Source: Escherichia phage vB-Eco-KMB37. From it: DNA of 64,000 nt. The translations under genes were made by a program, and so were the position numbers. The stretch is from the sequence record OR525700; one strand, written 5' to 3'. Shown piece after piece: positions 3,986 through 21,477 of the stretch; the first letter of the stretch is position 1; every line of letters begins with the position of its first letter. The notes below the pieces were generated by a model that saw only the letters and a program-made list of their open reading frames with translations, was not told the DNA's origin and made no database searches.

Positions 3986-4946
3986 AAATTCCAATAACAG
4001 TGTTTACACGCTTCTCTTTGCTACGTAAATTAACACGTCCACGAGACAGGCTATTACATGATGTGCATCTTAGCACTTGGAATGTACTAACCGCTGTTGT
4101 GTAAACCTTACCAGGAACAACTTCAAGGTGCTCTTTACCGCAACGAGGACAACGAAGTTTTTCATCGTCATAGAATGCAGATACGTTAGGATGTTGTGGA
4201 ATCCATGCACGAAGTTTGATGTAAAGATCTCTAAGAGAAACAACATCACCATCGTTGTATGTTTGCATACGGAAGAAGGCATGTCTATCTCCTTCACAAC
4301 ATGCTTTCCACAAAGGAAAACCTTCATTATCAAGTTTAAAGTTTTCTGTATCAAAATACAGACACATTTCTTTAAGCGCATTAGAAGGTAGTGCAAACTG
4401 CTTCTTAGCTGCCTTGAGTGTATCAATTACAACATAATGTGATGGTGGCTCCATACCGTGAAAAGCAAAACGTTGGTTAATATAAGCCTTATCAAACTTA
4501 ATTCCGTTGTGCGCGATCACAATATCTGCATCGTCAAGCAAGTGCCAGAGATCTTGACATAATTCCCAATCATCTGTATGATCTATGTCAAACAAAGGGT
4601 AATTGCTAAGGTTCTTACCTTCTACTTCCCCTGTTTCTAAATCAGCAGATGAATAGGAAAGCAAGTAACCTCGACGAATAACTTGTTCAGGTGCAATAAA
4701 GGCTTTGAAACGTGAGAAGCTATACACAATCTCCGGTGCTGTCTCTACGTCAATAATTTTAATTACTGGCCCACCTTTATCTTGCGGAGCACCGCGATGT
4801 GGTGAATTTACACGAGCTAAGTAATCATTTACTGTGCTCTTCTTAGTAGAACTTCCCAACACCTCTTGTGCAATCTTACGCGAAGAATAACCTTGTGCTT
4901 TCATAGATACAATCAAGGCTTTCTGTTCGTCTGTTAATTTACTCAA
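3984..4946 (-). CDS. DEDD-family 3'-5' exonuclease with N-terminal HTH and C-terminal zinc ribbon
   Basis: IIDVETAPE (Exo I) and IAHNGIKFDKAYI (Exo II/III-like) motifs; N-terminal sigma-region-4-like HTH; CPRCG...CTSCN at C-terminus. Confidence 0.6.
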   Translation of the reverse strand: MSKLTDEQKALIVSMKAQGYSSRKIAQEVLGSSTKKSTVNDYLARVNSPHRGAPQDKGGPVIKIIDVETAPEIVYSFSRFKAFIAPEQVIRRGYLLSYSSADLETGEVEGKNLSNYPLFDIDHTDDWELCQDLWHLLDDADIVIAHNGIKFDKAYINQRFAFHGMEPPSHYVVIDTLKAAKKQFALPSNALKEMCLYFDTENFKLDNEGFPLWKACCEGDRHAFFRMQTYNDGDVVSLRDLYIKLRAWIPQHPNVSAFYDDEKLRCPRCGKEHLEVVPGKVYTTAVSTFQVLRCTSCNSLSRGRVNLRSKEKRVNTVIGI

Positions 4947-5977
4947 TGTTCCTCCTGCTCTGAAATATATGCTTGTAGCATACTTTCAAAAGTTGTTTCA
5001 TCATTCGCCCAACGTTTCATATATACCAACTGAAAAATTGTCTCTATCCATTCATCAGTTGTCATTTCTACTTCTTCACCATCCCAAGAAGTAAATTTAA
5101 CGCCGTCTGGGAACCATTCATAATACTGATCTTTAACTGTCTGAAAAAGTTCAGCCTGTGTTTTACATTTGGAAATAAGATTAAAGCAAGTAATATCTCC
5201 AAACTTAACATCGAAATCTTGGTAAGGTCGAATACTATCTGTCTTATCGCCCATTAGCATTTGATAAGCTAACCAGTAACTACCCCAACCCTTAACTTCT
5301 TTTTTCTTACCTTTTTCTACGATCCAGATATCACCGATAGATTCATCAATCAGAATAACACAAGGATTTTTATAAACACCATCCTCTTTATAAAAGTTAA
5401 AGAGTAAACTCGGTGTGTGTAAGCTATCTTTGTCGATAGATGCTACAATATGAGAAAACTTACCAGTTTCCTTGTAGGCTTTATACCCTGCATATCCATA
5501 GATTTCTAAAGCATCATCTGCCTCAATACCAGTAACAACGTCACCGTTATGTTTTTCAACTAGATAATCTTTAGTATCTGATAATTGGATTGGTCTTAAA
5601 TCTGATCGCTCTGATTTATATTCTTTTGGCATTTTGAAAGAATGCCGGAAGGTTTTTCCTACCCCGATGACACCGCAATACTTTTGAAGTTTTAGGTGAT
5701 CCACCATCTGGGTTATTTTTGTCTTTGCAGCTTGAAACGTAAAAGAAATATTCTCTGGGACTATTTGAACATCTTTTATTTCAAAATCTTCTTTGGAGAA
5801 CAACTTCTTACCAGCAGCTTCGCGTTGCGCGTTAAGTGCTCCTAACCATCCTCCAATATTTTTTGAAGATTTACCCCAAAAATCTGTTCTTGTTTCAAAC
5901 TCTTTTACATTACCGGAAGCCTTGTGTACAGCGTGGATTTTTCTTTGTTCTAAAGCTGAAGACGCTTGGAACGCCAC
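4943..5977 (-). CDS. Putative FEN-like 5'-3' exonuclease
   Basis: GIEADDALEIYGY and VASIDKDSL motifs resemble the Pol I 5'-nuclease GYEADD / SGDKD signatures. Confidence 0.45.
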   Translation of the reverse strand: MAFQASSALEQRKIHAVHKASGNVKEFETRTDFWGKSSKNIGGWLGALNAQREAAGKKLFSKEDFEIKDVQIVPENISFTFQAAKTKITQMVDHLKLQKYCGVIGVGKTFRHSFKMPKEYKSERSDLRPIQLSDTKDYLVEKHNGDVVTGIEADDALEIYGYAGYKAYKETGKFSHIVASIDKDSLHTPSLLFNFYKEDGVYKNPCVILIDESIGDIWIVEKGKKKEVKGWGSYWLAYQMLMGDKTDSIRPYQDFDVKFGDITCFNLISKCKTQAELFQTVKDQYYEWFPDGVKFTSWDGEEVEMTTDEWIETIFQLVYMKRWANDETTFESMLQAYISEQEEH

Positions 5978-11682: not shown

Positions 11683-12234
11683 TTAATCTCCTTTGATTAT
11701 CTTATGATGATCTACAACAACAATATCACGCTTATCCATAATAGAGATGATTTCGTCAAAATGCAAGATTTTCCCGTGTGCATCCCAACCAACATCCAAC
11801 ATTTTCCCATACAAATGATCAGGGAATGATCCGTGAGAGTGTCCGTGTAGCATGATTGATCCATGCCCTTGTTTATTCCAGGCAGCCATAGGGTAATGAC
11901 TTAAGACGAAGAACAGCTTCTGATATTTCACTTCGTCATAATACACAACTTCTCCATACTCTGCAAGCACTTTTCTGTGTTTGCTGTAATCATGGTTCCC
12001 AACACAGTAAGTAATATCCCCTTGGAGACGGGAAGCAATCTTACGGGTATCTTCTTCAGTCCCGAAACAGAAGTCCCCAAGATGGTACATCTTTACTCCT
12101 GGTGTTGTGGCACATTTATTCCATGCTTCGATCAGTGCTTCTGTCATATGCTCCATATCTTCCCACGGACGATATTCAGGAGCAAACTCTCGGATACGTT
12201 TGTGCATAAAATGCAAATCACTTGTAATAAACAT
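11683..12234 (-). CDS. Calcineurin-like metallophosphoesterase
   Basis: DLHFMH, GDFCFG, GNHD, and HGHSHG motifs (DxH...GDxxD...GNH[DE]...GH.H). Confidence 0.7.
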   Translation of the reverse strand: MFITSDLHFMHKRIREFAPEYRPWEDMEHMTEALIEAWNKCATTPGVKMYHLGDFCFGTEEDTRKIASRLQGDITYCVGNHDYSKHRKVLAEYGEVVYYDEVKYQKLFFVLSHYPMAAWNKQGHGSIMLHGHSHGSFPDHLYGKMLDVGWDAHGKILHFDEIISIMDKRDIVVVDHHKIIKGD

Positions 12235-12596
12235 TAGTATAATCCCTCGCTGAATAGTTCACTGTTGTGACCATTTCTTTCGTAGTTAATTTGTTTGGCG
12301 TTATCTGCAATGATATAAGCATCTTTGCGACTCCACCAGTTATAATACTGATCAATAAACCCTTGATTATCAGGTAAGCAAAACAGTTTATCGATCAATC
12401 CTGCATCTTTTAAAACATTAAGTTGTGCAGATAGTACAGGATTTGCATGCCTAACACAAGGAATAATTAACTCTTCGCCATTGTTAAGAATATACTTGTT
12501 CGCAGCGCAGACTATAACACGTTGAGCATAGTGATCCTCACCAATCCAAGTGAGAGGTTGGTAACAAATATCATGTTGATTAGTAGCGCACATCAA
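12234..12596 (-). CDS. Hypothetical protein
   Basis: 120-aa ORF. Confidence 0.4.
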   Translation of the reverse strand: MMCATNQHDICYQPLTWIGEDHYAQRVIVCAANKYILNNGEELIIPCVRHANPVLSAQLNVLKDAGLIDKLFCLPDNQGFIDQYYNWWSRKDAYIIADNAKQINYERNGHNSELFSEGLY

Positions 12597-12751
12597 TTTT
12601 CTCCATACTCTTTTAATTTATCAGCGAAAAAACTGTAATCAGGAAGTAAAAGATCATTACTCGTATCGCTCCAGTTCTCTTCCTCTCTATAGATAAAATG
12701 CCCTTCATCCTCTTCTTGCTCTGACCAAACTGAATAATGCATAATACCTAC

Positions 12752-13126
12752 TTAATAGTTAACACGTTTAATTTCAACACCATAGGATGAAATAAAATTT
12801 TCCTTAGCTAACATATATTTACCAGCAGCAGAAGGATTTGATGTATGAACATAGATAGTTTTAAGAGCATCCCATTCACCCGCGTACAACATACATTCTA
12901 CATCCAAGAACGCATGATATCCTTCTTGATCTTCTCCAAGATCATTATCGAAGTGTATCTCTGAGATAGTATTGAAATTATCTTCATCTGAAACAAAAGA
13001 TGACCAATCCTCAAAAGATTTTAACCAAATGGCATCCTCATAACCATAATCTTTAGGATTTCTTAAATCGTCTAACCAAAGAATTTTAGCCACTATCAAC
13101 CTCCTTCCTGTTTCTCTTCTTTCCAA
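12752..13126 (-). CDS. Hypothetical protein
   Basis: 124-aa ORF, acidic. Confidence 0.4.
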   Translation of the reverse strand: MERRETGRRLIVAKILWLDDLRNPKDYGYEDAIWLKSFEDWSSFVSDEDNFNTISEIHFDNDLGEDQEGYHAFLDVECMLYAGEWDALKTIYVHTSNPSAAGKYMLAKENFISSYGVEIKRVNY

Positions 13127-14803: not shown

Positions 14804-15074
14804 CGTTTTTAGGAGGTTCAGGTTGTACTTAAAAATAATCCAAAAAGGTGTTGACAAACGCAAAAAAGTATGCTACCCTAACCCCCGAAAAACGCCGAGC
14901 GCAGCGAGGGGGGTGTTATCTAATCTTGTGATACATGATCTAACAGACAACTGAGTAGTCTACATATAGCACTATGTTATGTCTATAATACTAACATACA
15001 TACTCTATACTAACAATAGATTCTTTATTAATTTTATTATTAATTAAATAATAAATTAAATAATAAATATCTAT

Positions 15075-15103
15075 TGACTTTAGATCTATCTGTATGTAGA
15101 GTA
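15075..15103 (+). promoter_or_regulatory. Sigma70-like promoter upstream of the prs-like gene
   Basis: TTGACT -35 followed by TAGAGT-like -10; AAGGAG RBS then ATG at 15142. Confidence 0.45.
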
Positions 15104-15141
15104 GAGAACATAAAGTCCTAACTCAACTAAGGAGATAAACA

Positions 15142-16035
15142 ATGAAAGTTAGTATTCTACATGGTGTTGACTGTTATGTTACTGATGTAGACGTTAAAGT
15201 CTTTACATTCTCTGGTGGAGAACAACATGTTCAACTAGACACGAATCTATCAGGTTTCAATCATGCTACAGACAGAATCTTACTCTCTTTAGAAGTAAGA
15301 TCTGCTAAAGACTTGATGACTTTGGTTATGACTAAGAATGCATTGGACAATATGCTATATCATAAACCATATTGTGTTGATTTACTCATGTTGTATGTGC
15401 CGTATGCACGACAAGACAGAGTGTGTGAGCCTGGGGAAGCATTCGGAGTTAAAGCCTTTGCTTCTATAATTAATTCATTAAATTTCTCACGTGTTATCGT
15501 TGCTGATCCACATAGTGATGTTACTCCGGCAGTGTTTGACAGACTCTGTGTAATACCTCAAGAAGAGATTGCTTACGAAACTTTAAAGTGGAAGTTACGT
15601 ATGGAGAATTTTGCTCTTGTTAGTCCTGATGGTGGTGCTCTTAAGAAAATATTTAAATTATCTAAGAAAATGTCTTTAGATGTGTTCTGTGCAGAGAAGG
15701 TTAGAGATACTGCAACAGGTGCTATTGTTCGTACAGACATTTCTGTACAGGATTTCAATAAGCGTAACCTGATGATCGTAGATGATATCTGTGACGGCGG
15801 TAGAACTTTTATTGAATTGGCTAAAGTGCTACGTGCTCGTAACGCAGGTAAGATTGAGTTATATGTTACACACGGTATCTTTTCTAAAGGTCTTAAAGAG
15901 TTAAGTGAGCACTTTGACTGCATTCATTCTCTTAATGTGTGGGAAGATAACATCCAAGAAGATTCCGGTGTTCTTGTTAAGAATCAGTCAGATTTGCAAC
16001 AACAAATTGTATCTCCATACGTGTGGAATTTTTAA
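15142..16035 (+). CDS. Ribose-phosphate pyrophosphokinase homolog (Prs-like; possibly an ADP-ribose pyrophosphate synthetase of a NAD+ reconstitution pathway)
   Basis: YARQDR and PRPP-binding MIVDDICDGGRT motifs align with E. coli Prs (YARQDRR, VLVDDMIDTGGT). Confidence 0.8.
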   Translation: MKVSILHGVDCYVTDVDVKVFTFSGGEQHVQLDTNLSGFNHATDRILLSLEVRSAKDLMTLVMTKNALDNMLYHKPYCVDLLMLYVPYARQDRVCEPGEAFGVKAFASIINSLNFSRVIVADPHSDVTPAVFDRLCVIPQEEIAYETLKWKLRMENFALVSPDGGALKKIFKLSKKMSLDVFCAEKVRDTATGAIVRTDISVQDFNKRNLMIVDDICDGGRTFIELAKVLRARNAGKIELYVTHGIFSKGLKELSEHFDCIHSLNVWEDNIQEDSGVLVKNQSDLQQQIVSPYVWNF

Positions 16036-16045
16036 ATAATAAGTG

Positions 16046-16074
16046 TTGACAATAGGGAGTATGCTTAGTAAGAT
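16046..16074 (+). promoter_or_regulatory. Sigma70-like promoter
   Basis: TTGACA-N17-TAAGAT upstream of the NAMPT-like gene. Confidence 0.5.
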
Positions 16075-16106
16075 ACTCCCACACTAACAAACAAGGAGAC
16101 ATAACT

Positions 16107-17840
16107 ATGAATATTTTTGCACCTTTTGCTACTGATTGGTATAAACCTGGTCACAAGCAGATGTACAACCAAAATACAAAACTCATTTTCTCTAATTTAA
16201 CTCCTCGTAATGATAAAAACTTTGCACACTATGCAGATCGTGAAGCACGTGGTGTAATTGTTTTAGGTATTCGTCGAGCAGTTACTGATGCTCTTGTAAC
16301 TATGTGGGATAGCTTCTTTAAAATGTCTCGTAGTGCAGCAGTAAATAAATTTTATCGTATGTCTAAAAATGCATTAGGTGCTTCTGCTCCTTCTGCTGAA
16401 TGTTGGGGAGAATTGCACGATTTAGGTTATCTTCCGCTGGAAGTTCGATCTCTGCCAGAAGGTGTTTTGTGTCCTATTGGTGTTCCTGTGTTTACTGTGC
16501 ATAATACTTTAGAAAAATTCTTTTGGTTAACTAACTATGTGGAAACACTATTGTCAGATGAAACTTGGAAGACAATGACTAATGCTACAGCAGCTTTTCA
16601 GTATAAGCGTATTGCTATGGCATATGCGATGGCAACGTGTGATAATATTGATCATGTTAACTTCCAGTGTCATGATTTTAGCCTACGTGGTTTAAGTAAT
16701 ATCGAAGATGGTTATAAGAGTGGTATCGCTCATTTGGCATCTTTCACAGGAACAGATAACATTCTGGCTATTGAGACTGTGCATGATTATTATGGTATTG
16801 ATTATGATCAGTTTGTTGCAGGTTCTATTCCGGCAACAGAACATTCAGTAGCAACGACTAACATTGGAGCTATTGTTGAAGATCTGAAGAAACATTTCCC
16901 ACATCTTAAAGATGATGTTGATGGGCTTCGTTATGTAGCAGAGAAAGAGTTTCTTCGCCGCTATATTGAAGAAATTGTTCCAGAAGGTTTTTGTTCATAT
17001 GTAGCAGATTCTTATGACTACTGGGCTGTCTTGACTCGCATTCTGGTCGAGTTGAAAGATTCCATTATGTCACGAAATGGTCGTCTTGTTATTCGTCCAG
17101 ATTCAGGAGATCCGGTTAAAGTTGTTGCAGGATACAATGTTGAATCTTTTGATAACTATGAAGACCTTTTAAATAATGGTATTGCTACAGCCACTGAAGT
17201 AGTTCATTTGGCTGATGTTAATAAGTATTACAATGTTCTTCAGGATTGCAGTGTTGCTGATTGTATTGATGAAACTTATGAGATTCCTTATTGTGAAGCA
17301 GTAGGTTCTATTCAAATCCTTTGGGAAGTGTTTGGTGGTACTATCAACCGAAAAGGCTACAAGGTTCTTGATCAGCACATCGGTATGATTTATGGTGATT
17401 CTATTACTGTTGAACGAGAACACGAAATCTTACGCCGACTGAAGAAGAAAGGTTTTGCAGCTTCCAATATTGTATTTGGTGTTGGTAGTTATACTTATCA
17501 GTTCAATACACGAGATACTTTTGGTTTTGCTGTTAAAGCAACAGGTAGTATCATCGGTGAACACGAAATTTTGGTAAGTAAGGAGCCTAAAACTGATCCT
17601 GGTAAACGTTCTGCAAAAGGTTTTATTAAGGTTGTTAAGGATACAAACGGTAAAATTTCTCTCGTGGATAATCTTTCTTTTAAAGATATTCAAGATGAAG
17701 ACAATGAGTTAAAAGTTATCTTCAGGGATGGTACGGTTATTACACCACAAGTAGAAGGACGTGATGAAACATTTACGGATATCCGCAATCGTGTTGATGT
17801 AGAGGTTCTTCGTACTATGGGAACCATCCAGGTTGACTAA
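16107..17840 (+). CDS. Nicotinamide phosphoribosyltransferase family protein (NadV/NAMPT-like; possibly Namat)
   Basis: 577 aa; N-terminal DWYKPGHKQMY and overall NAMPT-like architecture; adjacent to the Prs-like gene. Confidence 0.8.
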   Translation: MNIFAPFATDWYKPGHKQMYNQNTKLIFSNLTPRNDKNFAHYADREARGVIVLGIRRAVTDALVTMWDSFFKMSRSAAVNKFYRMSKNALGASAPSAECWGELHDLGYLPLEVRSLPEGVLCPIGVPVFTVHNTLEKFFWLTNYVETLLSDETWKTMTNATAAFQYKRIAMAYAMATCDNIDHVNFQCHDFSLRGLSNIEDGYKSGIAHLASFTGTDNILAIETVHDYYGIDYDQFVAGSIPATEHSVATTNIGAIVEDLKKHFPHLKDDVDGLRYVAEKEFLRRYIEEIVPEGFCSYVADSYDYWAVLTRILVELKDSIMSRNGRLVIRPDSGDPVKVVAGYNVESFDNYEDLLNNGIATATEVVHLADVNKYYNVLQDCSVADCIDETYEIPYCEAVGSIQILWEVFGGTINRKGYKVLDQHIGMIYGDSITVEREHEILRRLKKKGFAASNIVFGVGSYTYQFNTRDTFGFAVKATGSIIGEHEILVSKEPKTDPGKRSAKGFIKVVKDTNGKISLVDNLSFKDIQDEDNELKVIFRDGTVITPQVEGRDETFTDIRNRVDVEVLRTMGTIQVD

Positions 17841-17911
17841 ATAAAAACTTCGTGATAAGATTAAGGTAAGGAGAGCCTGCAACTGCCCTGGATGGGCTTC
17901 ACGAAGGATTT

Positions 17912-18133
17912 ATGAAACAACATAATTTTTATTTTCGTTGCCGAGCCTGTAACAGACACTTGACTAATCATTCCCGTAGAGACAGGAATGGTAATATTCA
18001 AGAGTCGGATCTATGCTCGATTTGTACAAGTTTGGCATTCGACGACAGTCCCGAAAGGGTTTATCAACATCAAAGTGTAACTGATCTTCTTCTAAATTAC
18101 ACAGCACCAGAGGAGGAATTAGATTTCACATAA
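17912..18133 (+). CDS. Small zinc-ribbon protein
   Basis: CRACNRH...CSIC pair of CxxC motifs in 73 aa. Confidence 0.4.
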   Translation: MKQHNFYFRCRACNRHLTNHSRRDRNGNIQESDLCSICTSLAFDDSPERVYQHQSVTDLLLNYTAPEEELDFT

Positions 18134-18146
18134 TTAAGGAAACAGT

Positions 18147-18257
18147 ATGTCTACAGAAATTATTTTTGGCTTATCTGTTTTTATTGCTATTGTATCTTTT
18201 GTATGCGGTTATACACTAGGTTACAGATCAAGAAAAAATATTGTAAAAACTAGTTGA
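18147..18257 (+). CDS. Small hydrophobic peptide (36 aa)
   Basis: AAGGAAACA RBS then ATG; single TM-like segment GLSVFIAIVSFVCGY; below the ORF-track length cutoff. Confidence 0.3.
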   Translation: MSTEIIFGLSVFIAIVSFVCGYTLGYRSRKNIVKTS

Positions 18258-18283
18258 CAACATAGCTAGTTATTTGCTAAGAT
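18254..18283 (+). promoter_or_regulatory. Sigma70-like promoter
   Basis: TTGACA-N18-TAAGAT. Confidence 0.5.
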
Positions 18284-18694: not shown

Positions 18695-18780
18695 GCAAGT
18701 GTGGTGGAATTGGTGATACACATTGTGCTTAAAACGCAACGCTTAAATGATTGAGGGTTCGAATCCCTCCACTTGCACCA
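18695..18780 (+). tRNA. tRNA-Leu (anticodon TAA), type II
   Basis: Acceptor GCAAGTG/CACTTGC, loop CTTAAAA, long variable arm, T-arm GAGGG-TTCGAAT-CCCTC, CCA encoded. Confidence 0.7.
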
Positions 18781-18782
18781 AC

Positions 18783-18890
18783 GCCTAGTAGGGTATTTGG
18801 TAATTCCGAGGCCATCAAAGCCTGAAAAATATGTTAGACCGTTTTGTCTAACTAAATACGAAATATGGTTCGATTCCATAACTAGGCTCC
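18783..18890 (+). tRNA. Atypical tRNA-like element (about 107 nt)
   Basis: Perfect 7-bp acceptor pairing GCCTAGT/ACTAGGC and T-arm TATGG-TTCGATT-CCATA, but about 32 nt too long, with an extra 7-bp hairpin GTTAGAC/GTCTAAC; anticodon not resolved. Confidence 0.3.
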
Positions 18891-18923
18891 CGATTTAAAT
18901 AGTAATTTTTTAATAAAAATATC

Positions 18924-18952
18924 TTGACATTTACTTAGTTTTTTGTTATAGT
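18924..18952 (+). promoter_or_regulatory. Sigma70-like promoter
   Basis: TTGACA-N17-TATAGT. Confidence 0.55.
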
Positions 18953-18963
18953 CATTATGAAAA

Positions 18964-19045
18964 CGGGGTGTATCTCACCTGACTTCTAATCAGGCGTTAA
19001 CCGAGTAATTGGAGTATGCAGGTTCGAATCCTGTCACCCCGGCCA
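18964..19045 (+). tRNA. Atypical tRNA-like element (anticodon-like loop TCT, Arg-like)
   Basis: Perfect acceptor CGGGGTG/CACCCCG, stem-loop CCTGA-CTTCTAA-TCAGG, T-arm GCAGG-TTCGAAT-CCTGT, CCA; no canonical D-arm and a 24-nt insert before the T-arm. Confidence 0.35.
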
Positions 19046-19063
19046 AAAAGTTTTAAAAACTAC

Positions 19064-19092
19064 TTGACAAGCAAGATAGTTTTATGTTAGAT
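19064..19092 (+). promoter_or_regulatory. Sigma70-like promoter
   Basis: TTGACA-N17-TTAGAT. Confidence 0.5.
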
Positions 19093-19108
19093 TTAAAGTA
19101 TGGTAACA

Positions 19109-19198
19109 GGAAGGTAGGGCGCAGCGGTGCGCAACCAGGTTTGAACCCTGGCCCATTGTAGCGATACGGTGATGGTTCGACTCCATTATCTTCCTCCA
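19109..19198 (+). tRNA. tRNA-Ser (anticodon TGA), type II
   Basis: Acceptor GGAAGGT/ATCTTCC, anticodon arm CCAGG-TTTGAAC-CCTGG, long variable arm, CCA. Confidence 0.65.
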
Positions 19199-19216
19199 AA
19201 TTCGCTTAGGAGCTTT

Positions 19217-19369
19217 ATGAATTATAAAACTATTGGACAGGTTGTTACCGGAGTTAAGATTGTAGATAATAAAGTTGTTTATGAGTATTCTAATCTTCAA
19301 CAATCTGAAGATGGTAAAAATATTCGTATGGTAAAAGCAGAACAAAAAGATTCCGGTTGTTTTGAATAA
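19217..19369 (+). CDS. Hypothetical small protein (50 aa)
   Basis: AGGAG RBS then ATG at 19217; the longer track ORF would start inside the preceding tRNA. Confidence 0.35.
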   Translation: MNYKTIGQVVTGVKIVDNKVVYEYSNLQQSEDGKNIRMVKAEQKDSGCFE

Positions 19370-19377
19370 TTAATAAC

Positions 19378-19463
19378 GGTAGATTGGTGAAATGGTAGCC
19401 ACAACAGTTTGCTAAACTGTAGTCGGAAACGGCGTGTAGGTTCAAGTCCTACATCTACCGCCA
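19378..19463 (+). tRNA. tRNA-Ser (anticodon GCT), type II
   Basis: Acceptor GGTAGAT/ATCTACC, anticodon arm ACAGT-TTGCTAA-ACTGT, long variable arm, discriminator G, CCA. Confidence 0.7.
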
Positions 19464-19597
19464 AGTTATCTTTAATGTAGCTTGTAATCTTACTTTAATA
19501 GAGTAAATCTTCGGCAAGTGGCGGTAACCACTTTACCGATACCCTAATACTTCATAGTCAAGTGCCGCAAACACTGGCTATTTTAAAGATAATTTAT

Positions 19598-19673
19598 ACA
19601 TCGTTAGCTTAGTTGGTAGAGCAAGGGGCTTTTAACTCCAAGGTCGAAGGTTCGAATCCTTCACGATGTACCA
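19598..19673 (+). tRNA. tRNA-Lys (anticodon TTT)
   Basis: Acceptor ACATCGT/ACGATGT, loop CTTTTAA, T-arm GAAGG-TTCGAAT-CCTTC, CCA. Confidence 0.7.
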
Positions 19674-19678
19674 AACAC

Positions 19679-19765
19679 GTAGGTATCGCATAGCGGCAAT
19701 TGCTGGAGACTGTAAATCTCCTGCCCTTCGGGGCTTCGTTGGTTCGAGTCCAACTACCTGCACCA
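19679..19765 (+). tRNA. tRNA-Tyr (anticodon GTA), type II
   Basis: Anticodon arm GGAGA-CTGTAAA-TCTCC, long variable arm, T-arm GTTGG-TTCGAGT-CCAAC, CCA. Confidence 0.7.
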
Positions 19766-19772
19766 AATTAAA

Positions 19773-19857
19773 GATGGATTGGCCTAGTGGTTGGGCGACG
19801 GACTGTTAATCCGTGAACGAAAGTTCTAGCAAGGTTCAAATCCTTGATCCATCGCCA
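19773..19857 (+). tRNA. Type II (long-variable-arm) tRNA with Asn anticodon GTT
   Basis: Perfect acceptor GATGGAT/ATCCATC, 3-bp D-stem, anticodon arm ACGGA-CTGTTAA-TCCGT, 15-nt variable arm with GAAC-GAAA-GTTC hairpin, discriminator G, CCA. Confidence 0.6.
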
Positions 19858-19864
19858 GAATCAT

Positions 19865-19941
19865 GGACTTGTAGAGTTAAGGTAAACCCTCAGTCGCCAA
19901 GAGGCTTCTGGAATTGCAGGTATCGAATCCTGCCGAGTCCA
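19865..19941 (+). tRNA. Atypical tRNA-like element (anticodon unresolved)
   Basis: Acceptor GGACTTG/CGAGTCC pairs well; T-loop has 8 nt (TATCGAAT); no clean 5-bp/7-nt anticodon arm; no encoded CCA. Confidence 0.3.
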
Positions 19942-19947
19942 ATTATT

Positions 19948-20022
19948 GCTCCTATCGTATAACGGCTATTACGGTTGCCTTGTAAGCAACTTATCAGGGT
20001 TCGAGTCCTTGTGGGAGCACCA
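19948..20022 (+). tRNA. tRNA-Thr (anticodon TGT)
   Basis: Acceptor GCTCCTA/TGGGAGC, anticodon arm GTTGC-CTTGTAA-GCAAC, CCA. Confidence 0.7.
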
Positions 20023-20045
20023 ATTTTAACTCTAAAGGAGTGTAT

Positions 20046-20369
20046 GTGACAGAAAAAGAGTTAGAGAAATATTTTAATATCAATGTTTTCGATGGTTTTG
20101 ATGATATTGAAGATGTTGAAAGATATTATGAAGTAGAGTTAGATAAGGATAACATTGTAATTCTTTCTGCCACTTATGATTGTGCATATTATGAAGGTGA
20201 ATCTCACGTTTATTTTTATGATATGAAAACATCTTTGTTTTATGAAGTACACGCATATCATTGTTCTTGTTATGGTTTAGAAGGTCAGTGGGAACCTGAA
20301 GAAATAGGTGATTTGGACTTTACTATTGCATATCTAAACAGACGTGGTGCATCTACTATTTTAAAATAA
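20046..20369 (+). CDS. Hypothetical protein
   Basis: AAGGAG RBS; likely GTG start at 20046 (track start 20040 lies inside the RBS). Confidence 0.45.
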   Translation: MTEKELEKYFNINVFDGFDDIEDVERYYEVELDKDNIVILSATYDCAYYEGESHVYFYDMKTSLFYEVHAYHCSCYGLEGQWEPEEIGDLDFTIAYLNRRGASTILK

Positions 20370-20383
20370 ATATCAAAAGCCTC

Positions 20384-20413
20384 TTGACAAAGGGGCTAAT
20401 AATATGTTAGAGT
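20384..20413 (+). promoter_or_regulatory. Sigma70-like promoter
   Basis: TTGACA-N17-TAGAGT-like. Confidence 0.5.
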
Positions 20414-20424
20414 AATATTGTTAA

Positions 20425-20499
20425 GCGGGTATAGTGTTAATGGTAGCATATGAGGTTTCCACCCTCCAGGTGCAGGTTCAAGTCCTGTTACTCGCTCCA
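20425..20499 (+). tRNA. tRNA-Gly (anticodon TCC)
   Basis: Acceptor GCGGGTA/TACTCGC, loop TTTCCAC, T-arm GCAGG-TTCAAGT-CCTGT, CCA. Confidence 0.7.
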
Positions 20500-20517
20500 A
20501 GATTATTTAAATGGAAT

Positions 20518-20570
20518 CGCTAGAGAAAATTTCTCTTTTCGCTCATGGTTTTCTCCTTCAAACTCTAGCG
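20518..20570 (+). other. Structured spacer between tRNA-Gly and tRNA-Gln (nested inverted repeats)
   Basis: Outer 8-bp inverted repeat CGCTAGAG...CTCTAGCG enclosing hairpin GAGAAA/TTTCTC. Confidence 0.3.
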
Positions 20571-20598
20571 GTTCTTTTTAAGTGATTTTTAGTTTTAT

Positions 20599-20673
20599 TG
20601 GAGATTAGCCTAGTGGGAAGGCAACGGCCTTTGAAGTCGTGATGACTAGGTTCGATTCCTAGATCTCCAGCCA
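20599..20673 (+). tRNA. tRNA-Gln (anticodon TTG)
   Basis: Acceptor TGGAGAT/ATCTCCA, anticodon arm ACGGC-CTTTGAA-GTCGT, T-arm CTAGG-TTCGATT-CCTAG, CCA. Confidence 0.75.
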
Positions 20674-20680
20674 ATATTTA

Positions 20681-20756
20681 CAGTGCGTAGCGCAGTTGGT
20701 AGCGTGGGAGCTTTGGATGCTTCGGGTCGCAGGTTCGAGTCCTGCCGCACTGACCA
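20681..20756 (+). tRNA. tRNA-Pro (anticodon TGG)
   Basis: Acceptor CAGTGCG/CGCACTG, anticodon arm GGAGC-TTTGGAT-GCTTC, T-arm GCAGG-TTCGAGT-CCTGC, CCA. Confidence 0.75.
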
Positions 20757-20761
20757 AATTT

Positions 20762-20836
20762 GCAGAGATAGCTGAGACGGATTAGTGCTACCCTGAAAAG
20801 GTAGAAAGGATGGATCGTTACCATCTCTCTGCACCA
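20762..20836 (+). tRNA. tRNA-Phe (anticodon GAA)
   Basis: Acceptor GCAGAGA/TCTCTGC, anticodon arm CTACC-CTGAAAA-GGTAG, CCA. Confidence 0.7.
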
Positions 20837-20913
20837 AATAACACCATCCAAGGAGTAGACTTGGTTAACTGTCAATAGCACATTGAGGCTTCTTACAGTG
20901 GTGTACTTATTAT

Positions 20914-20998
20914 GGCTAAGTGGTGGAATGGTATACACGATACGCTTAGAACGTATTGCCCCAGTGGATTGTGAGTTCGAGTCTCACCTTAGCTACCA
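20914..20998 (+). tRNA. tRNA-Leu (anticodon TAG), type II
   Basis: Anticodon arm ATACG-CTTAGAA-CGTAT, long variable arm, T-arm GTGAG-TTCGAGT-CTCAC, CCA. Confidence 0.7.
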
Positions 20999-21085
20999 TA
21001 TCTAAGAGATATCATAGGGTTTGCAACGGATATCTACCGTCCTATTAAGGATACCACGCCAAGACGGGTTATAAAGGGTTAGCCA

Positions 21086-21161
21086 TTGATAGTGTGAAGC
21101 TGGCGTTTCGAGTGCTTTCATAAGGCATTGCGAGAAGAGTTCGATTCTCTTACTATCAACC
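21086..21161 (+). tRNA. tRNA with CAT anticodon (Met or Ile2)
   Basis: Acceptor TGATAGT/ACTATCA, loop TTCATAA with wobble-containing stem, T-arm AAGAG-TTCGATT-CTCTT, CCA. Confidence 0.55.
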
Positions 21162-21177
21162 AAATTACTACAGATTG

Positions 21178-21256
21178 CGCGGGATAGAGGAGTCTGGTCG
21201 TCCTCGCCAGTTTCATATGCTGGAGATCATCGGTTCGAATCCGATTTCCGCCTCCA
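21178..21256 (+). tRNA. tRNA with CAT anticodon (Met or Ile2), boundaries approximate
   Basis: D-stem AGGA/TCCT, loop TTCATAT, T-arm ATCGG-TTCGAAT-CCGAT; acceptor pairing imperfect. Confidence 0.5.
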
Positions 21257-21332
21257 ATAAATACCTCCCTTCTGGTGTAATGATTAAATTACATTGACAC
21301 TTCAAGGAACTCATAGCCGGGTAGATTTAAAA

Positions 21333-21397
21333 GAGTATGGTACTCAATATGGCTCCAAACCATAGATCAAGGGGTTCGATTCCTCACCTTGCTGCCA
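21333..21397 (+). tRNA. Possible tRNA-Trp (anticodon CCA), 5' boundary uncertain
   Basis: Anticodon arm TATGG-CTCCAAA-CCATA and T-loop TTCGATT plus CCA are clear; no acceptable 5' acceptor strand found with a normal D-arm. Confidence 0.3.
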
Positions 21398-21401
21398 ATA
21401 T

Positions 21402-21477
21402 TGTGGTATCGTACAGATGGTTAGTACACTCGACCGATAATCGAGAAACAACGGTTCGACTCCGTTTACCACGACCA
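21402..21477 (+). tRNA. tRNA-Ile (anticodon GAT)
   Basis: Acceptor TGTGGTA/TACCACG, D-stem GTAC/GTAC, anticodon arm CTCGA-CCGATAA-TCGAG, CCA. Confidence 0.7.

What the first reader, a model, noticed from the sequence alone, without database searches (positions are those of the whole stretch)
15142..17840. Prs-like plus NAMPT-like gene pair: candidate NAD+ reconstitution (anti-defence) module
The PRPP-synthetase-like gene sits directly upstream of the NAMPT-like gene, each with its own consensus promoter. This two-gene arrangement matches the published phage NAD+ reconstitution pathway 1, in which a Prs homolog makes ADP-ribose pyrophosphate and a NAMPT homolog joins it to nicotinamide, rebuilding NAD+ after NAD-depleting immunity. 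No NMN adenylyltransferase is seen in this window, which fits that pathway rather than classical salvage.
Basis: partly seen in the sequence, partly recalled or inferred. Interest (0 to 1): 0.7.

Follow-up and report, generated by a model that had tools for sequence, protein, structure and literature searches.

The report
Known phage NAD+ rebuilding gene pair

Summary
The window is Escherichia phage inny (MN850601.1, a phi92-like Justusliebigvirus). Both ORFs exist exactly as described: 15142-16035 (297 aa, Prs-like) and 16107-17840 (577 aa, NAMPT-like), on the same strand and 71 bp apart.

The NARP1 interpretation holds on every sequence-level test.
- The Prs-like protein falls in the Adps clade (100% bootstrap against genuine Prs; 295 bits on an Adps profile versus 76 on a Prs profile).
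- The NAMPT-like protein carries the Namat-specific adenine clamp (GSYTYQFNTRD, with aromatic residues at both stacking positions). True Nampt/NadV enzymes lack it.
- No NMN adenylyltransferase exists anywhere in the 147-kb genome.
- Both genes are under strong purifying selection.

It is already known. These exact proteins are listed in the supplementary tables of the 2024 NARP1 discovery paper as an Adps with a neighbouring Namat. No experiment on this phage lineage was found, so substrate use remains inferred.

"Consensus promoter" is overstated: the -35 boxes are near-perfect but the -10 boxes match only 4 of 6 positions.

One side finding: an Adpp-like macrodomain gene lies about 62 kb away, outside the window. 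The published operon-restricted survey would have missed it.

The parts
15030..15070 (+). AT-rich tract upstream of the adps promoter-like site. It overlaps the repeat_region annotated in MN850601 (record 39901-39926 = window 15043-15068) and could act as an UP-like element.
   Evidence: Sequence read; annotation. Function is inferred only.
15074..15102 (+). Promoter-like site upstream of adps: TTGACT-N17-TAGAGT (9 of 12 positions match).
   Evidence: It belongs to an enriched class, TTGAC-N18/19-TANRNT, found 21 times against 4.4 expected. It is identical in phi92 and muut.
15129..15134 (+). Ribosome-binding site AAGGAG for adps.
   Evidence: the phi92 record annotates the equivalent RBS.
15142..16035 (+). 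adps (inny_81): Prs-like ADP-ribose diphosphokinase, 297 aa. Predicted reaction: ADPR + ATP -> ADPR-pyrophosphate.
   Evidence: ORF. Adps clade at 100% bootstrap, and 295 bits on an Adps profile versus 76 on a Prs profile. Scores on curated Prs models resemble validated Adps, not Prs. K186-x-R188 catalytic loop present. Listed in Osterman Supplementary Table 1. dN/dS 0.03-0.18.
16046..16074 (+). Promoter-like site upstream of namat: TTGACA-N17-TAAGAT (10 of 12 positions match).
   Evidence: The exact motif occurs 3 times in the window against 0.12 expected.
16055..16080 (+). Inverted repeat GGGAGTAT-N10-ATACTCCC in the adps-namat spacer, overlapping the -10 box. Its role is unknown; an operator or an RNA stability/processing hairpin are possibilities. 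No U-tract follows it, so it is not a typical terminator.
   Evidence: RNA fold of -15.3 kcal/mol, z=-2.5, with 4 of 200 shuffles folding as well. The stem is conserved in phi92 and muut, with one loop change in muut.
16093..16098 (+). Ribosome-binding site AAGGAG for namat.
   Evidence: the phi92 record annotates the equivalent RBS.
16107..17840 (+). namat (inny_82): NAMPT-like nicotinamide ADP-ribose transferase, 577 aa, long form. Predicted reaction: ADPR-PP + nicotinamide -> NAD+.
   Evidence: ORF. Clamp motif G460-SYTYQFNTRD-470 and conserved catalytic residues. Best sequence and structure matches are the Namat crystal structures 9w5x/9w5w. Listed as 'Adps-associated' in Osterman Supplementary Table 2. 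dN/dS 0.05-0.08.

Best explanation
The pair is a NARP1 (NAD+ reconstitution pathway 1) module of a phi92-like E. coli phage.

Proposed mechanism. When an NAD-depleting defence (SIR2-HerA, DSR1/2, type I Thoeris, SEFIR and similar) cleaves NAD+ into ADP-ribose and nicotinamide, gp81 (Adps) transfers pyrophosphate from ATP to the 1'' position of ADP-ribose, giving ADPR-PP. gp82 (Namat) then joins ADPR-PP to nicotinamide and regenerates NAD+ directly. Neither NMN nor an adenylyltransferase is needed.

Shown here: gene order, family and clade membership, catalytic and substrate-clamp residues, absence of an Nmnat in the genome, purifying selection, and plausible early sigma70-type promoters.

Inferred from characterised homologues (Bas63 in vivo; SPbetaL1 and DyoEdafos in vitro): the substrates and the anti-defence phenotype.
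For: 1. Published catalogue. The identical proteins are listed as an Adps homologue with an adjacent Namat, and as an Adps-associated Namat, in the discovery paper's supplementary tables.

2. Adps clade. The split between 23 phage/Namat-linked proteins (inny and the three validated Adps included) and 7 genuine Prs plus 2 Prs-like paralogues has 100% bootstrap support. An Adps profile trained without the inny lineage gives inny 295 bits, against 76 bits on a Prs profile; E. coli Prs scores 136 and 522.

3. Curated models. Inny scores 118.8 on TIGR01251 and 99.6 on NF002320. Validated Adps score 82-139 and 61-101. E. coli Prs scores 423 and 533, and the NF002320 cut-off is 297.

4. Catalytic Lys. 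K186-V-R188 corresponds to SPbetaL1 K162, whose K162A mutant is inactive.

5. Namat clamp. The helix motif GS-X-phi-X-phi-X-phi-TRD is present as GSYTYQFNTRD, with aromatic Y462 and F466 at the two adenine-stacking positions. True Nampt/NadV enzymes have non-aromatic residues there: H. ducreyi NadV GAQTYQRNTRD, KVP40 GGGLLQQLDRD, Xanthomonas GGALLQKVDRD. Of 120 lineage homologues, 118 keep the motif.

6. Namat catalytic core. F191, R194, D217, H246, R330 and D332 are conserved.

7. No competing pathway. No NadD, NadR or NatV homologue exists in any of 1,371 six-frame ORFs of the genome (best E=0.33), while the positive controls score 5.5e-17 and 3.1e-58.

8. Conservation. The pair is present in 55 of 56 matching phage records at 95% DNA identity or more, with dN/dS of 0.03-0.18.

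9. Fusion. A PHROG profile (phrog_12872) joins an Adps part and a Namat part in one protein.
Against: No biochemical or genetic test exists for any Justusliebigvirus NARP1 in the literature searched.

Identity to the validated enzymes is modest: 30-32% for Adps and 44% for Namat. Pairwise, inny Adps scores only 65-72 bits against the two biochemically assayed Adps, compared with 59 bits against E. coli Prs.

No published sequence determinant distinguishes ADPR use from ribose-5-phosphate use in Adps.

In the variable clamp loop, the residue after Lys37 is Asn, not the aromatic seen in Bas63 (Trp). The stacking residue may instead be the nearly invariant Phe39.

Namat enzymes keep about half of human Nampt's activity on PRPP in vitro, so some NMN formation cannot be excluded.

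Fold similarity does not discriminate the two classes (TM 0.93 to Namat, 0.92 to NadV).
Confidence: 0.88

Rival explanations
1. Classical two-step salvage. gp81 is an ordinary PRPP synthetase, gp82 is an ordinary NadV/Nampt that makes NMN, and host enzymes (NadR, or PncC followed by NadD/NadE) finish NAD+ synthesis. This is the reading given by most GenBank annotations.
For: Annotations in related records read 'ribose-phosphate pyrophosphokinase' and 'nicotinamide phosphoribosyl transferase'. gp82 passes the NadV equivalog model (461 bits against a cut-off of 405). Namat retains PRPP-dependent NMN synthesis in vitro. H. ducreyi NadV is structurally almost as close as Namat.
Against: gp81 fails every curated Prs equivalog model by a factor of three or more and sits in the Adps clade at 100% bootstrap. 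gp82 has the aromatic adenine-clamp residues that NadV/Nampt enzymes lack. In Bas63, the closest validated relative, the pair works without host pncC and nadR and produces ADPR-PP in vivo. The NadV model also accepts all validated Namat proteins, so passing it says nothing.
Confidence: 0.07
2. PRPP supply for other phage enzymes. The Prs-like enzyme boosts PRPP for phage nucleotide metabolism, for example for the ComF-like phosphoribosyltransferase (inny_155) encoded elsewhere in the genome, and its adjacency to the NAMPT-like gene is secondary.
For: The genome encodes a strong ComF-like PRTase (PF15610, 143 bits) in a HAD-PRTase-Macro module, together with ribonucleotide reductases. A PRPP-consuming step therefore exists in the phage.
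Against: The Prs-like gene is 62 kb away from that PRTase and on the opposite strand, whereas it is 71 bp from Namat. According to the discovery paper, 97% of Adps-clade genes have a Namat neighbour. Clade and profile evidence place gp81 with the ADPR-using enzymes.
Confidence: 0.04

Closest known systems
NARP1 of Escherichia phage Bas63 (JohannRWettstein, Felixounavirus), genes 79-80 (Osterman et al. 2024)
   Same: Same gene order and strand with a short spacer (45 bp in Bas63, 71 bp here). It is the closest validated Adps (134 bits, 31% identity). The Namat is 44% identical and is likewise a long form (593 versus 577 aa), with the same two insertions and a Lys-type clamp loop (TPRSDKWF versus TPRNDKNF). 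The host species is the same. Both phages also carry an unlinked macrodomain 'phosphatase'.
   Different: The phage families differ (Ounavirinae versus Stephanstirmvirinae). The fourth clamp-loop residue is Trp in Bas63 and Asn here. Here the spacer carries its own promoter-like site and a conserved hairpin. Bas63 has been tested genetically and by metabolomics; inny has not.
NARP1 of Bacillus phage SPbetaL1 (Adps gp190, Namat gp191; Namat structures 9w5x/9w5w)
   Same: Same two-enzyme module. The catalytic Lys (K162 = K186 here) and the Namat residues F189, R192, D215, R306, D308 and the TRD triad are conserved. The clamp helix motif is GSFTYQYNTRD there and GSYTYQFNTRD here. SPbetaL1 Namat is the best sequence hit (397 bits) and the best structural hit (TM 0.93).
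   Different: In SPbetaL1 the genes abut (shared coordinate 41130) with no internal promoter. Its Namat is short (491 aa) and lacks both insertions (about 252-290 and 343-399 here). Its clamp loop is Arg-type (R40). Adps identity is only 32% (65 bits).
NARP1-AP (Adps-Adpp-Namat, Vibrio phage Gary) and RyDEP-containing NARP1 (Mycobacterium phage DyoEdafos)
   Same: Same Adps and Namat core. Inny also encodes a protein whose macrodomain is 41% identical to Gary Adpp (E=3e-32).
   Different: No third gene lies in or beside the inny pair. The macrodomain gene is 62 kb away, in a different conserved operon (HAD, ComF-like PRTase, Macro, near TerC), and carries an extra ~87-aa N-terminal extension. 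No RyDEP homologue exists.
NARP2 / classical phage salvage (Vibrio phage KVP40 NadV + NatV)
   Same: A NAMPT-family enzyme is used and the outcome is NAD+ replenishment.
   Different: KVP40 NadV is only 33% identical and lacks the aromatic clamp (GGGLLQQLDRD). NARP2 needs an Nmnat (NatV), which inny lacks, and has no Adps.
Haemophilus ducreyi NadV (9ke8/9keo)
   Same: Very similar fold (TM 0.92). It shares the TYQ.NTRD core and scores 339 bits.
   Different: The adenine-stacking positions are Gln and Arg (GAQTYQRNTRD) rather than Tyr and Phe. It is a genuine PRPP-using Nampt and is not paired with an Adps.

Membership tests
NARP1 (Adps + Namat) | An Adps homologue and a Namat homologue in close proximity (the discovery paper allows up to 10 genes), typically in one operon | tested here: met
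   Adjacent, on the same strand, 71 bp apart, with no terminator-like site between them. Osterman Supplementary Table 1 lists 'Namat within 10 genes = Yes'.
NARP1 (Adps + Namat) | The Prs-like protein belongs to the Adps clade, separate from cellular Prs | tested here: met
   100% bootstrap for the split between the Adps set (including inny and three validated Adps) and 7 genuine Prs plus 2 Prs-like paralogues. Inny scores 295 bits on the Adps profile and 76 on the Prs profile. Its scores on curated Prs models fall in the validated-Adps range.
NARP1 (Adps + Namat) | Adps catalytic lysine (SPbetaL1 K162 = B. subtilis Prs K197) | tested here: met
   K186-V-R188 aligns with the K-x-R of all three validated Adps. 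MAFFT places E. coli K194 one column off. The equivalence to Prs K197 is taken from the paper.
NARP1 (Adps + Namat) | Namat catalytic core shared with Nampt (F189, R192, D215, phospho-His, R306, D308 in SPbetaL1 numbering) | tested here: met
   F191, R194, D217, H246, R330 and D332 are invariant in alignment A2. Residue roles come from PMC12774641.
NARP1 (Adps + Namat) | [quoted passage not shown] | tested here: met
   GSYTYQFNTRD (460-470), with Y462 and F466 aromatic. NadV/Nampt controls lack these aromatics. 118 of 120 lineage homologues keep the motif.
NARP1 (Adps + Namat) | Namat selectivity-clamp loop supplies a stacking residue (third residue Arg, Lys or Tyr; if Lys or Tyr, the next residue stacks) | tested here: inconclusive
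   The third residue is Lys37, as in Bas63, but the next residue is Asn38 and that position varies in the lineage (N/L/Y/H). Phe39 and His41 are (nearly) invariant instead. A dimer model with ligand would be needed.
NARP1 (Adps + Namat) | Adps converts ADPR + ATP to ADPR-PP, and Namat converts ADPR-PP + nicotinamide to NAD+ | not testable with these tools
   Shown only for the SPbetaL1, DyoEdafos, P. foliorum and Gary enzymes, and in vivo for Bas63.
NARP1 (Adps + Namat) | Protects the phage from NAD+-depleting defence systems | not testable with these tools
   No experiment on phi92-like phages was found in the library.
NARP2 (Nampt + Nmnat) | An NMN adenylyltransferase (NatV/NadR/NadM type) encoded in the same genome | tested here: not met
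   phmmer with filters off, using E. coli NadD, E. coli NadR and KVP40 NatV, plus a small profile, against all 1,371 six-frame ORFs. The best single-sequence E-value is 0.33 (the two-sequence profile reached only 0.051, not significant). The controls are strongly positive.
NARP1-AP (NARP1 with associated phosphatase) | A macrodomain Adpp gene within two genes of the NARP1 pair | tested here: not met
   No Macro domain is found in the ten neighbouring ORFs. Inny and phi92 are absent from the paper's operon list. An unlinked homologue exists 62 kb away.
Class I ribose-phosphate diphosphokinase (Prs) | Reaches the curated NCBIfam equivalog/subfamily cut-offs for Prs | tested here: not met
   Inny scores 99.6 bits on NF002320 against a cut-off of 297, and all other Prs equivalog models are also far below cut-off. 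Only the broad TIGR01251 model is passed (118.8 against 113). E. coli Prs scores 533 on NF002320.
NadV/Nampt (nicotinamide phosphoribosyltransferase) | Reaches the NF006629 cut-off and has the NAMPT fold | tested here: met
   461 bits against a cut-off of 405; TM 0.89-0.92 to NAMPT/NadV structures. This test is not discriminating, because all validated Namat proteins pass it too.

The most novel reading that the evidence does not exclude
Phi92-like phages may run a dispersed, extended ADP-ribose salvage network rather than a bare two-gene NARP1.

The components would be an unlinked Adpp-like macrodomain protein (inny_154) and a phage Sir2 (inny_15). inny_154 is 41% identical to the validated ADPR-1''-phosphatase of Vibrio phage Gary. 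It sits in a conserved operon of HAD hydrolase, ComF-like PRTase and Macro genes, near TerC.

These enzymes could convert ADPR-1''-phosphate or O-acetyl-ADPR into ADPR, which then feeds Adps and Namat. In that case these phages would resist aRES-type defence even though they are not counted among 'NARP1-AP' phages, and the published 15% figure (which counts only macrodomains within two genes of NARP1) would be an underestimate.
Probability: 0.2. Interest if true: 0.5.

Novelty: already known. Interest (0 to 1): 0.2.

Why it matters
As a discovery it adds little. NARP1 was described in 2024, and this phage's two genes are already in that paper's tables.

Its value is mainly as a check: a tool-free reading of raw sequence recovered the correct and non-obvious function. 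GenBank still labels inny_81 'hypothetical protein' and inny_82 'nicotinate phosphoribosyltransferase'.

Practically, phi92-like phages have unusually broad host ranges and are candidates for therapy. Knowing that the whole genus carries a conserved, selected NARP1, alongside Sir2, macrodomain and (per the literature) NADAR and Atd1 genes, helps predict which NAD-based defences they will evade.

The unlinked Adpp-like gene is the only lead here that could extend current knowledge.

Tried and rejected
1. A first neighbour-joining tree with E. coli Prs as the only outgroup could not test separation from Prs. It was replaced by a tree with 9 Prs and Prs-like sequences taken from the plasmid/chromid collection. 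An earlier Biopython bootstrap run timed out.

2. The NadV equivalog model NF006629 and fold comparison were tried as discriminators between Namat and Nampt. Both fail: every Namat and Nampt passes the model, and TM-scores are 0.93 versus 0.92. Only the clamp residues discriminate.

3. The TYQ.NTRD core alone was rejected as a Namat signature, because H. ducreyi NadV has it too.

4. Genome-wide searches for an NMN adenylyltransferase (NadD, NadR, NatV) and for a RyDEP homologue were negative.

5. The 'hypothetical tRNA' annotated inside the phi92 Namat gene is not supported by ARAGORN in inny.

6. The spacer hairpin was considered as an intrinsic terminator and rejected. No U-tract follows it and the terminator scan does not call it.

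7. I looked for a published sequence rule separating ADPR-using Adps from Prs and for an Adps structure, and found none in the library.

8. inny_154 was considered as a dedicated NARP1 accessory. This was downgraded because its HAD-PRTase-Macro-TerC context is conserved in the sister genus and the macrodomain family occurs in 2,869 phage records, including T4-like phages that appear among the NARP2-type (NadV-like) hits rather than the NARP1 hits. By sequence it is closer to TARG1/OARD1-type macrodomains than to Poa1p.
Full report
ORIGIN AND OBSERVATION

The region 15000-18000 is 100% identical to Escherichia phage inny (MN850601.1; Stephanstirmvirinae, Justusliebigvirus, phi92-like). Window position equals record position minus 24,858.

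The first has Prs-type domains (PF00156, PF14572; TIGR01251 at 118.8 bits). The second belongs to the NAPRTase/NadV family (PF04095, E=5e-38; NF006629 at 461 bits).

The pair sits at the start of a rightward-transcribed block that follows a divergent intergenic region. GC skew changes sign at about 14-16 kb, and a cluster of 15 tRNA genes begins 855 bp downstream.

PROMOTER CLAIM

Each gene has an AAGGAG ribosome-binding site and a sigma70-like site: TTGACT-N17-TAGAGT at 15074-15102 and TTGACA-N17-TAAGAT at 16046-16074. 'Consensus' is an overstatement, because both -10 boxes match at 4 of 6 positions.

The sites are still not noise. TTGAC-N18/19-TAAGAT occurs three times in 64 kb against 0.12 expected, and each copy lies on the + strand just upstream of an ORF start (16107, 17912, 18314). 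The looser pattern TTGAC-N18/19-TANRNT occurs 21 times against 4.4 expected.

No terminator-like site separates the genes, so read-through from the first promoter is also likely. The spacer holds a conserved hairpin (16055-16080; -15.3 kcal/mol, z=-2.5) that overlaps the -10 box. Its function is unknown.

ALREADY CATALOGUED

The NARP1 discovery paper (Osterman et al., bioRxiv 10.1101/2024.02.11.579819; to my knowledge later published in Nature in 2024) lists MN850601_00081, with a sequence identical to the window ORF, in Supplementary Table 1 with 'Namat within 10 genes = Yes'. It lists MN850601_00082 in Supplementary Table 2 as 'Adps-associated'. The phi92, EmilieFrey, alia and outra entries appear alongside.

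The characterised references are:
- Bas63 genes 79-80: deletion, metabolomics, and independence from host pncC/nadR.
- SPbetaL1 gp190/191: purified enzymes, with K162A and R306G mutants inactive.
- DyoEdafos Adps and Namat: in vitro reconstitution.
- Vibrio phage Gary NARP1-AP.
- Paenibacillus foliorum NARP1.

I found no experiment on any phi92-like phage.

INDEPENDENT TESTS OF THE PRS-LIKE PROTEIN

Identity to the validated Adps of Bas63, SPbetaL1 and DyoEdafos is 31, 32 and 30%, against 25% to E. coli Prs.

On curated NCBIfam models inny scores like Adps and not like Prs:
- TIGR01251: inny 118.8; validated Adps 81.7-138.5; E. coli Prs 422.7.
- NF002320: inny 99.6; validated Adps 61-101; E. 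coli Prs 532.6; cut-off 297.

Pairwise scores alone are weak for the two assayed enzymes: 134 bits to Bas63, 72 to DyoEdafos, 65 to SPbetaL1 and 59 to E. coli Prs. I therefore built a tree that includes 7 genuine Prs (Escherichia, Acinetobacter, Acetoanaerobium, Rhizobium, Streptococcus, Streptomyces, Nostoc) and 2 divergent Prs-like paralogues.

The split that places all 23 phage or Namat-linked proteins, inny and the three validated Adps among them, apart from all Prs has 100% support in 300 bootstrap replicates. The internal order of the Adps clade is poorly resolved.

An Adps profile trained without the inny lineage scores inny at 295 bits, against 76 bits on a Prs profile. E. coli Prs gives 136 and 522.

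The catalytic loop K186-V-R188 matches the K-x-R of all validated Adps (SPbetaL1 K162).

INDEPENDENT TESTS OF THE NAMPT-LIKE PROTEIN

Identity is 44% to each of the three validated Namat proteins and 33% to KVP40 NadV. The best sequence hits in the PDB are the SPbetaL1 Namat structures 9w5x/9w5w (397 bits), ahead of 9ke8 (339 bits) and human NAMPT (168 bits).

An AlphaFold2 model (pLDDT 88.9, pTM 0.89) matches Namat best (TM 0.93), but H. ducreyi NadV (9ke8/9keo) is nearly as close (TM 0.92). Neither the fold nor the NadV equivalog model therefore discriminates between the classes.

The discriminator is the published selectivity clamp (PMC12774641). [quoted passage not shown] The sequences are:
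- inny: GSYTYQFNTRD (Y462, F466)
- SPbetaL1: GSFTYQYNTRD
- Bas63: GSYTYQYMTRD
- DyoEdafos: GSFTYQHNTRD
- H. ducreyi NadV: GAQTYQRNTRD
- KVP40 NadV: GGGLLQQLDRD
- Xanthomonas Nampt: GGALLQKVDRD

Among the 120 closest database homologues, 118 keep the motif. Position 3 is Tyr or Phe in all of these, and position 7 is Tyr or Phe in all but three, which have Met.

The catalytic residues F191, R194, D217, H246, R330 and D332 are conserved.

The variable clamp loop is Lys-type, as in Bas63 (TPRNDK37-N-F39). The residue after the Lys is Asn rather than an aromatic, whereas Phe39 and His41 are (nearly) invariant in the lineage. Which residue stacks remains open.

I rebuilt the full genome from the window and three flanking loci and searched all 1,371 six-frame ORFs of 40 aa or more. 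The queries were E. coli NadD, E. coli NadR, KVP40 NatV and a small NMNAT profile, with HMMER filters off.

The best single-sequence E-value is 0.33 (the two-sequence profile's best, 0.051, is not significant either), while the positive controls find Adps at 5.5e-17 and Namat at 3.1e-58. NadR-type NMNATs are common in other phages (773 records), so the search is capable of finding them. Classical salvage completed by the phage, and NARP2, are therefore excluded.

CONSERVATION

The 3-kb region is present in 55 of 56 matching phage records at 95% DNA identity or more. Among inny, phi92 and muut, dN/dS is 0.03-0.18 for adps and 0.05-0.08 for namat. Both genes are maintained by selection.

DIFFERENCES FROM THE CHARACTERISED EXAMPLES

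1. The Namat is a long form, shared with Bas63 and with all 120 closest homologues (555-596 aa). It has two insertions relative to SPbetaL1, DyoEdafos and KVP40. Both are predicted to be ordered: a helical hairpin at about 246-290 and a small alpha/beta subdomain at about 343-399.

2. The 71-bp spacer has its own promoter-like site and a hairpin. In SPbetaL1 the two genes abut.

3. There is no accessory gene (Adpp or RyDEP) in or next to the pair.

SIDE FINDING OUTSIDE THE WINDOW

A genome-wide search with the validated Gary Adpp hits inny_154 (record 103690-104406, 238 aa, 'hypothetical') at E=3.4e-32. The macrodomain (residues 88-238) is 41% identical to Gary Adpp and shares its signature motifs.

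The published survey scanned only two genes on either side of each NARP1, so it would not count this gene.

inny_154 has a context of its own: an overlapping operon of a HAD-like hydrolase, a ComF-like PRTase (PF15610, 143 bits) and the Macro gene, near TerC. This arrangement is conserved in the sister genus Phapecoctavirus. The macrodomain family occurs in 2,869 phage records. By sequence it is closer to TARG1/OARD1-type macrodomains (43-59 bits) than to Poa1p (16-18 bits). Bas63 also has an unlinked, more divergent copy.

The phage additionally encodes a genuine Sir2-family protein (inny_15; PF02146, 81 bits). The literature reports a NADAR protein and Atd1 in this lineage.

A dispersed ADP-ribose toolkit that feeds NARP1 is possible but unproven. 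I give it a probability of about 0.2.

VERDICT

The novelty category is 'already known'. Interest is low (0.2). The remaining value lies in the unlinked Adpp-like gene and in the fact that GenBank annotation of this record still misses the function.

Noticed in passing
L009:14891-15607 (-) = MN850601 record 103690-104406, outside the window: inny_154 ('hypothetical') is a macrodomain protein 41% identical to the validated ADPR-1''-phosphatase Adpp of Vibrio phage Gary (E=3e-32). It lies 62 kb from the NARP1 pair and carries an extra ~87-aa N-terminal extension. The published NARP1-AP survey, limited to two genes either side of NARP1, would have missed it.
   Followed up: partly
L009:14412-17106 (-) = record ~103211-105905; also L017 and L018: Conserved module with overlapping reading frames: HAD-like hydrolase (inny_156), ComF-like PRTase PF15610 (inny_155, 143 bits) and Macro (inny_154), near TerC and a 'tellurite resistance' gene. 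The same order is found in Phapecoctavirus ZCKP1. It is probably a Ter-associated pathway for a nucleoside-like metabolite.
   Followed up: partly
L008:4471-5283 (-) = record 4471-5283, outside the window: The phage encodes a genuine Sir2-family protein (PF02146, 81 bits; phrog_2162, E=1e-105). This is an NAD+-consuming enzyme in a phage that also carries an NAD+-rebuilding pathway.
   Followed up: partly
window 16055-16080: Conserved inverted repeat GGGAGTAT-N10-ATACTCCC in the adps-namat spacer, overlapping the -10 box of the namat promoter-like site (-15.3 kcal/mol, z=-2.5). The stem is intact in phi92 and muut.
   Followed up: partly
window 16046-16074, 17833-17861, 18254-18283: The recurring motif TTGAC-N18/19-TAAGAT occurs 3 times against 0.12 expected. 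Each copy lies directly upstream of an ORF, which suggests a lineage-specific early-promoter variant with a TAAGAT -10 box.
   Followed up: partly
window 17912-18133 (+): A 73-aa ORF with paired CxxC motifs, its own promoter-like site and a strong PHROG match (phrog_37033, E=2e-36). It is not annotated in MN850601.
   Followed up: partly
window 11683-13126 (-) and upstream: RNA-repair-like cluster: a putative RNA ligase (inny_70), a weak calcineurin-like phosphoesterase (11683-12234) and a cyclic-phosphate-processing receiver domain protein (cREC_REC PF20274, E=1e-13; 12752-13126).
   Followed up: no
P0216 (metagenome contig, 92 kb): An 867-aa Namat homologue carries a ~290-aa intein-like insert. 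The insert begins with Cys, ends ...GN|S, and lies exactly inside the catalytic IRPD|SGDP motif.
   Followed up: partly
phrog_12872; Shigella phage Ag3 entry in Osterman Supplementary Table 1: A phage protein family fuses an Adps N-terminal part to a Namat C-terminal part. The inny Adps matches profile positions 9-222 and the inny Namat matches positions 221-536.
   Followed up: no
L014:1988-2138 (phi92 record), equivalent to window ~16699-16849: The phi92 record annotates a 151-nt 'hypothetical tRNA' inside the Namat coding sequence. ARAGORN finds no tRNA there in inny.
   Followed up: yes
window 18695-21477: A cluster of 15 tRNA genes starts 855 bp downstream of namat. It is interspersed with small ORFs and promoter-like sites.
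   Followed up: no
Hits MG065656.1 and MG065639.1: Records named 'Campylobacter phage C3/A150' (146,366 bp) are ~98% identical in protein sequence to this E. coli phage lineage. The host label looks doubtful.
   Followed up: no
P0061, P0062, P0087: Adps-like proteins 43-46% identical to inny's are encoded on bacterial chromosomes (Geminocystis at 3.9-4.2 Mb, and Thorsellia). This is consistent with published reports of bacterial NARP1.
   Followed up: no
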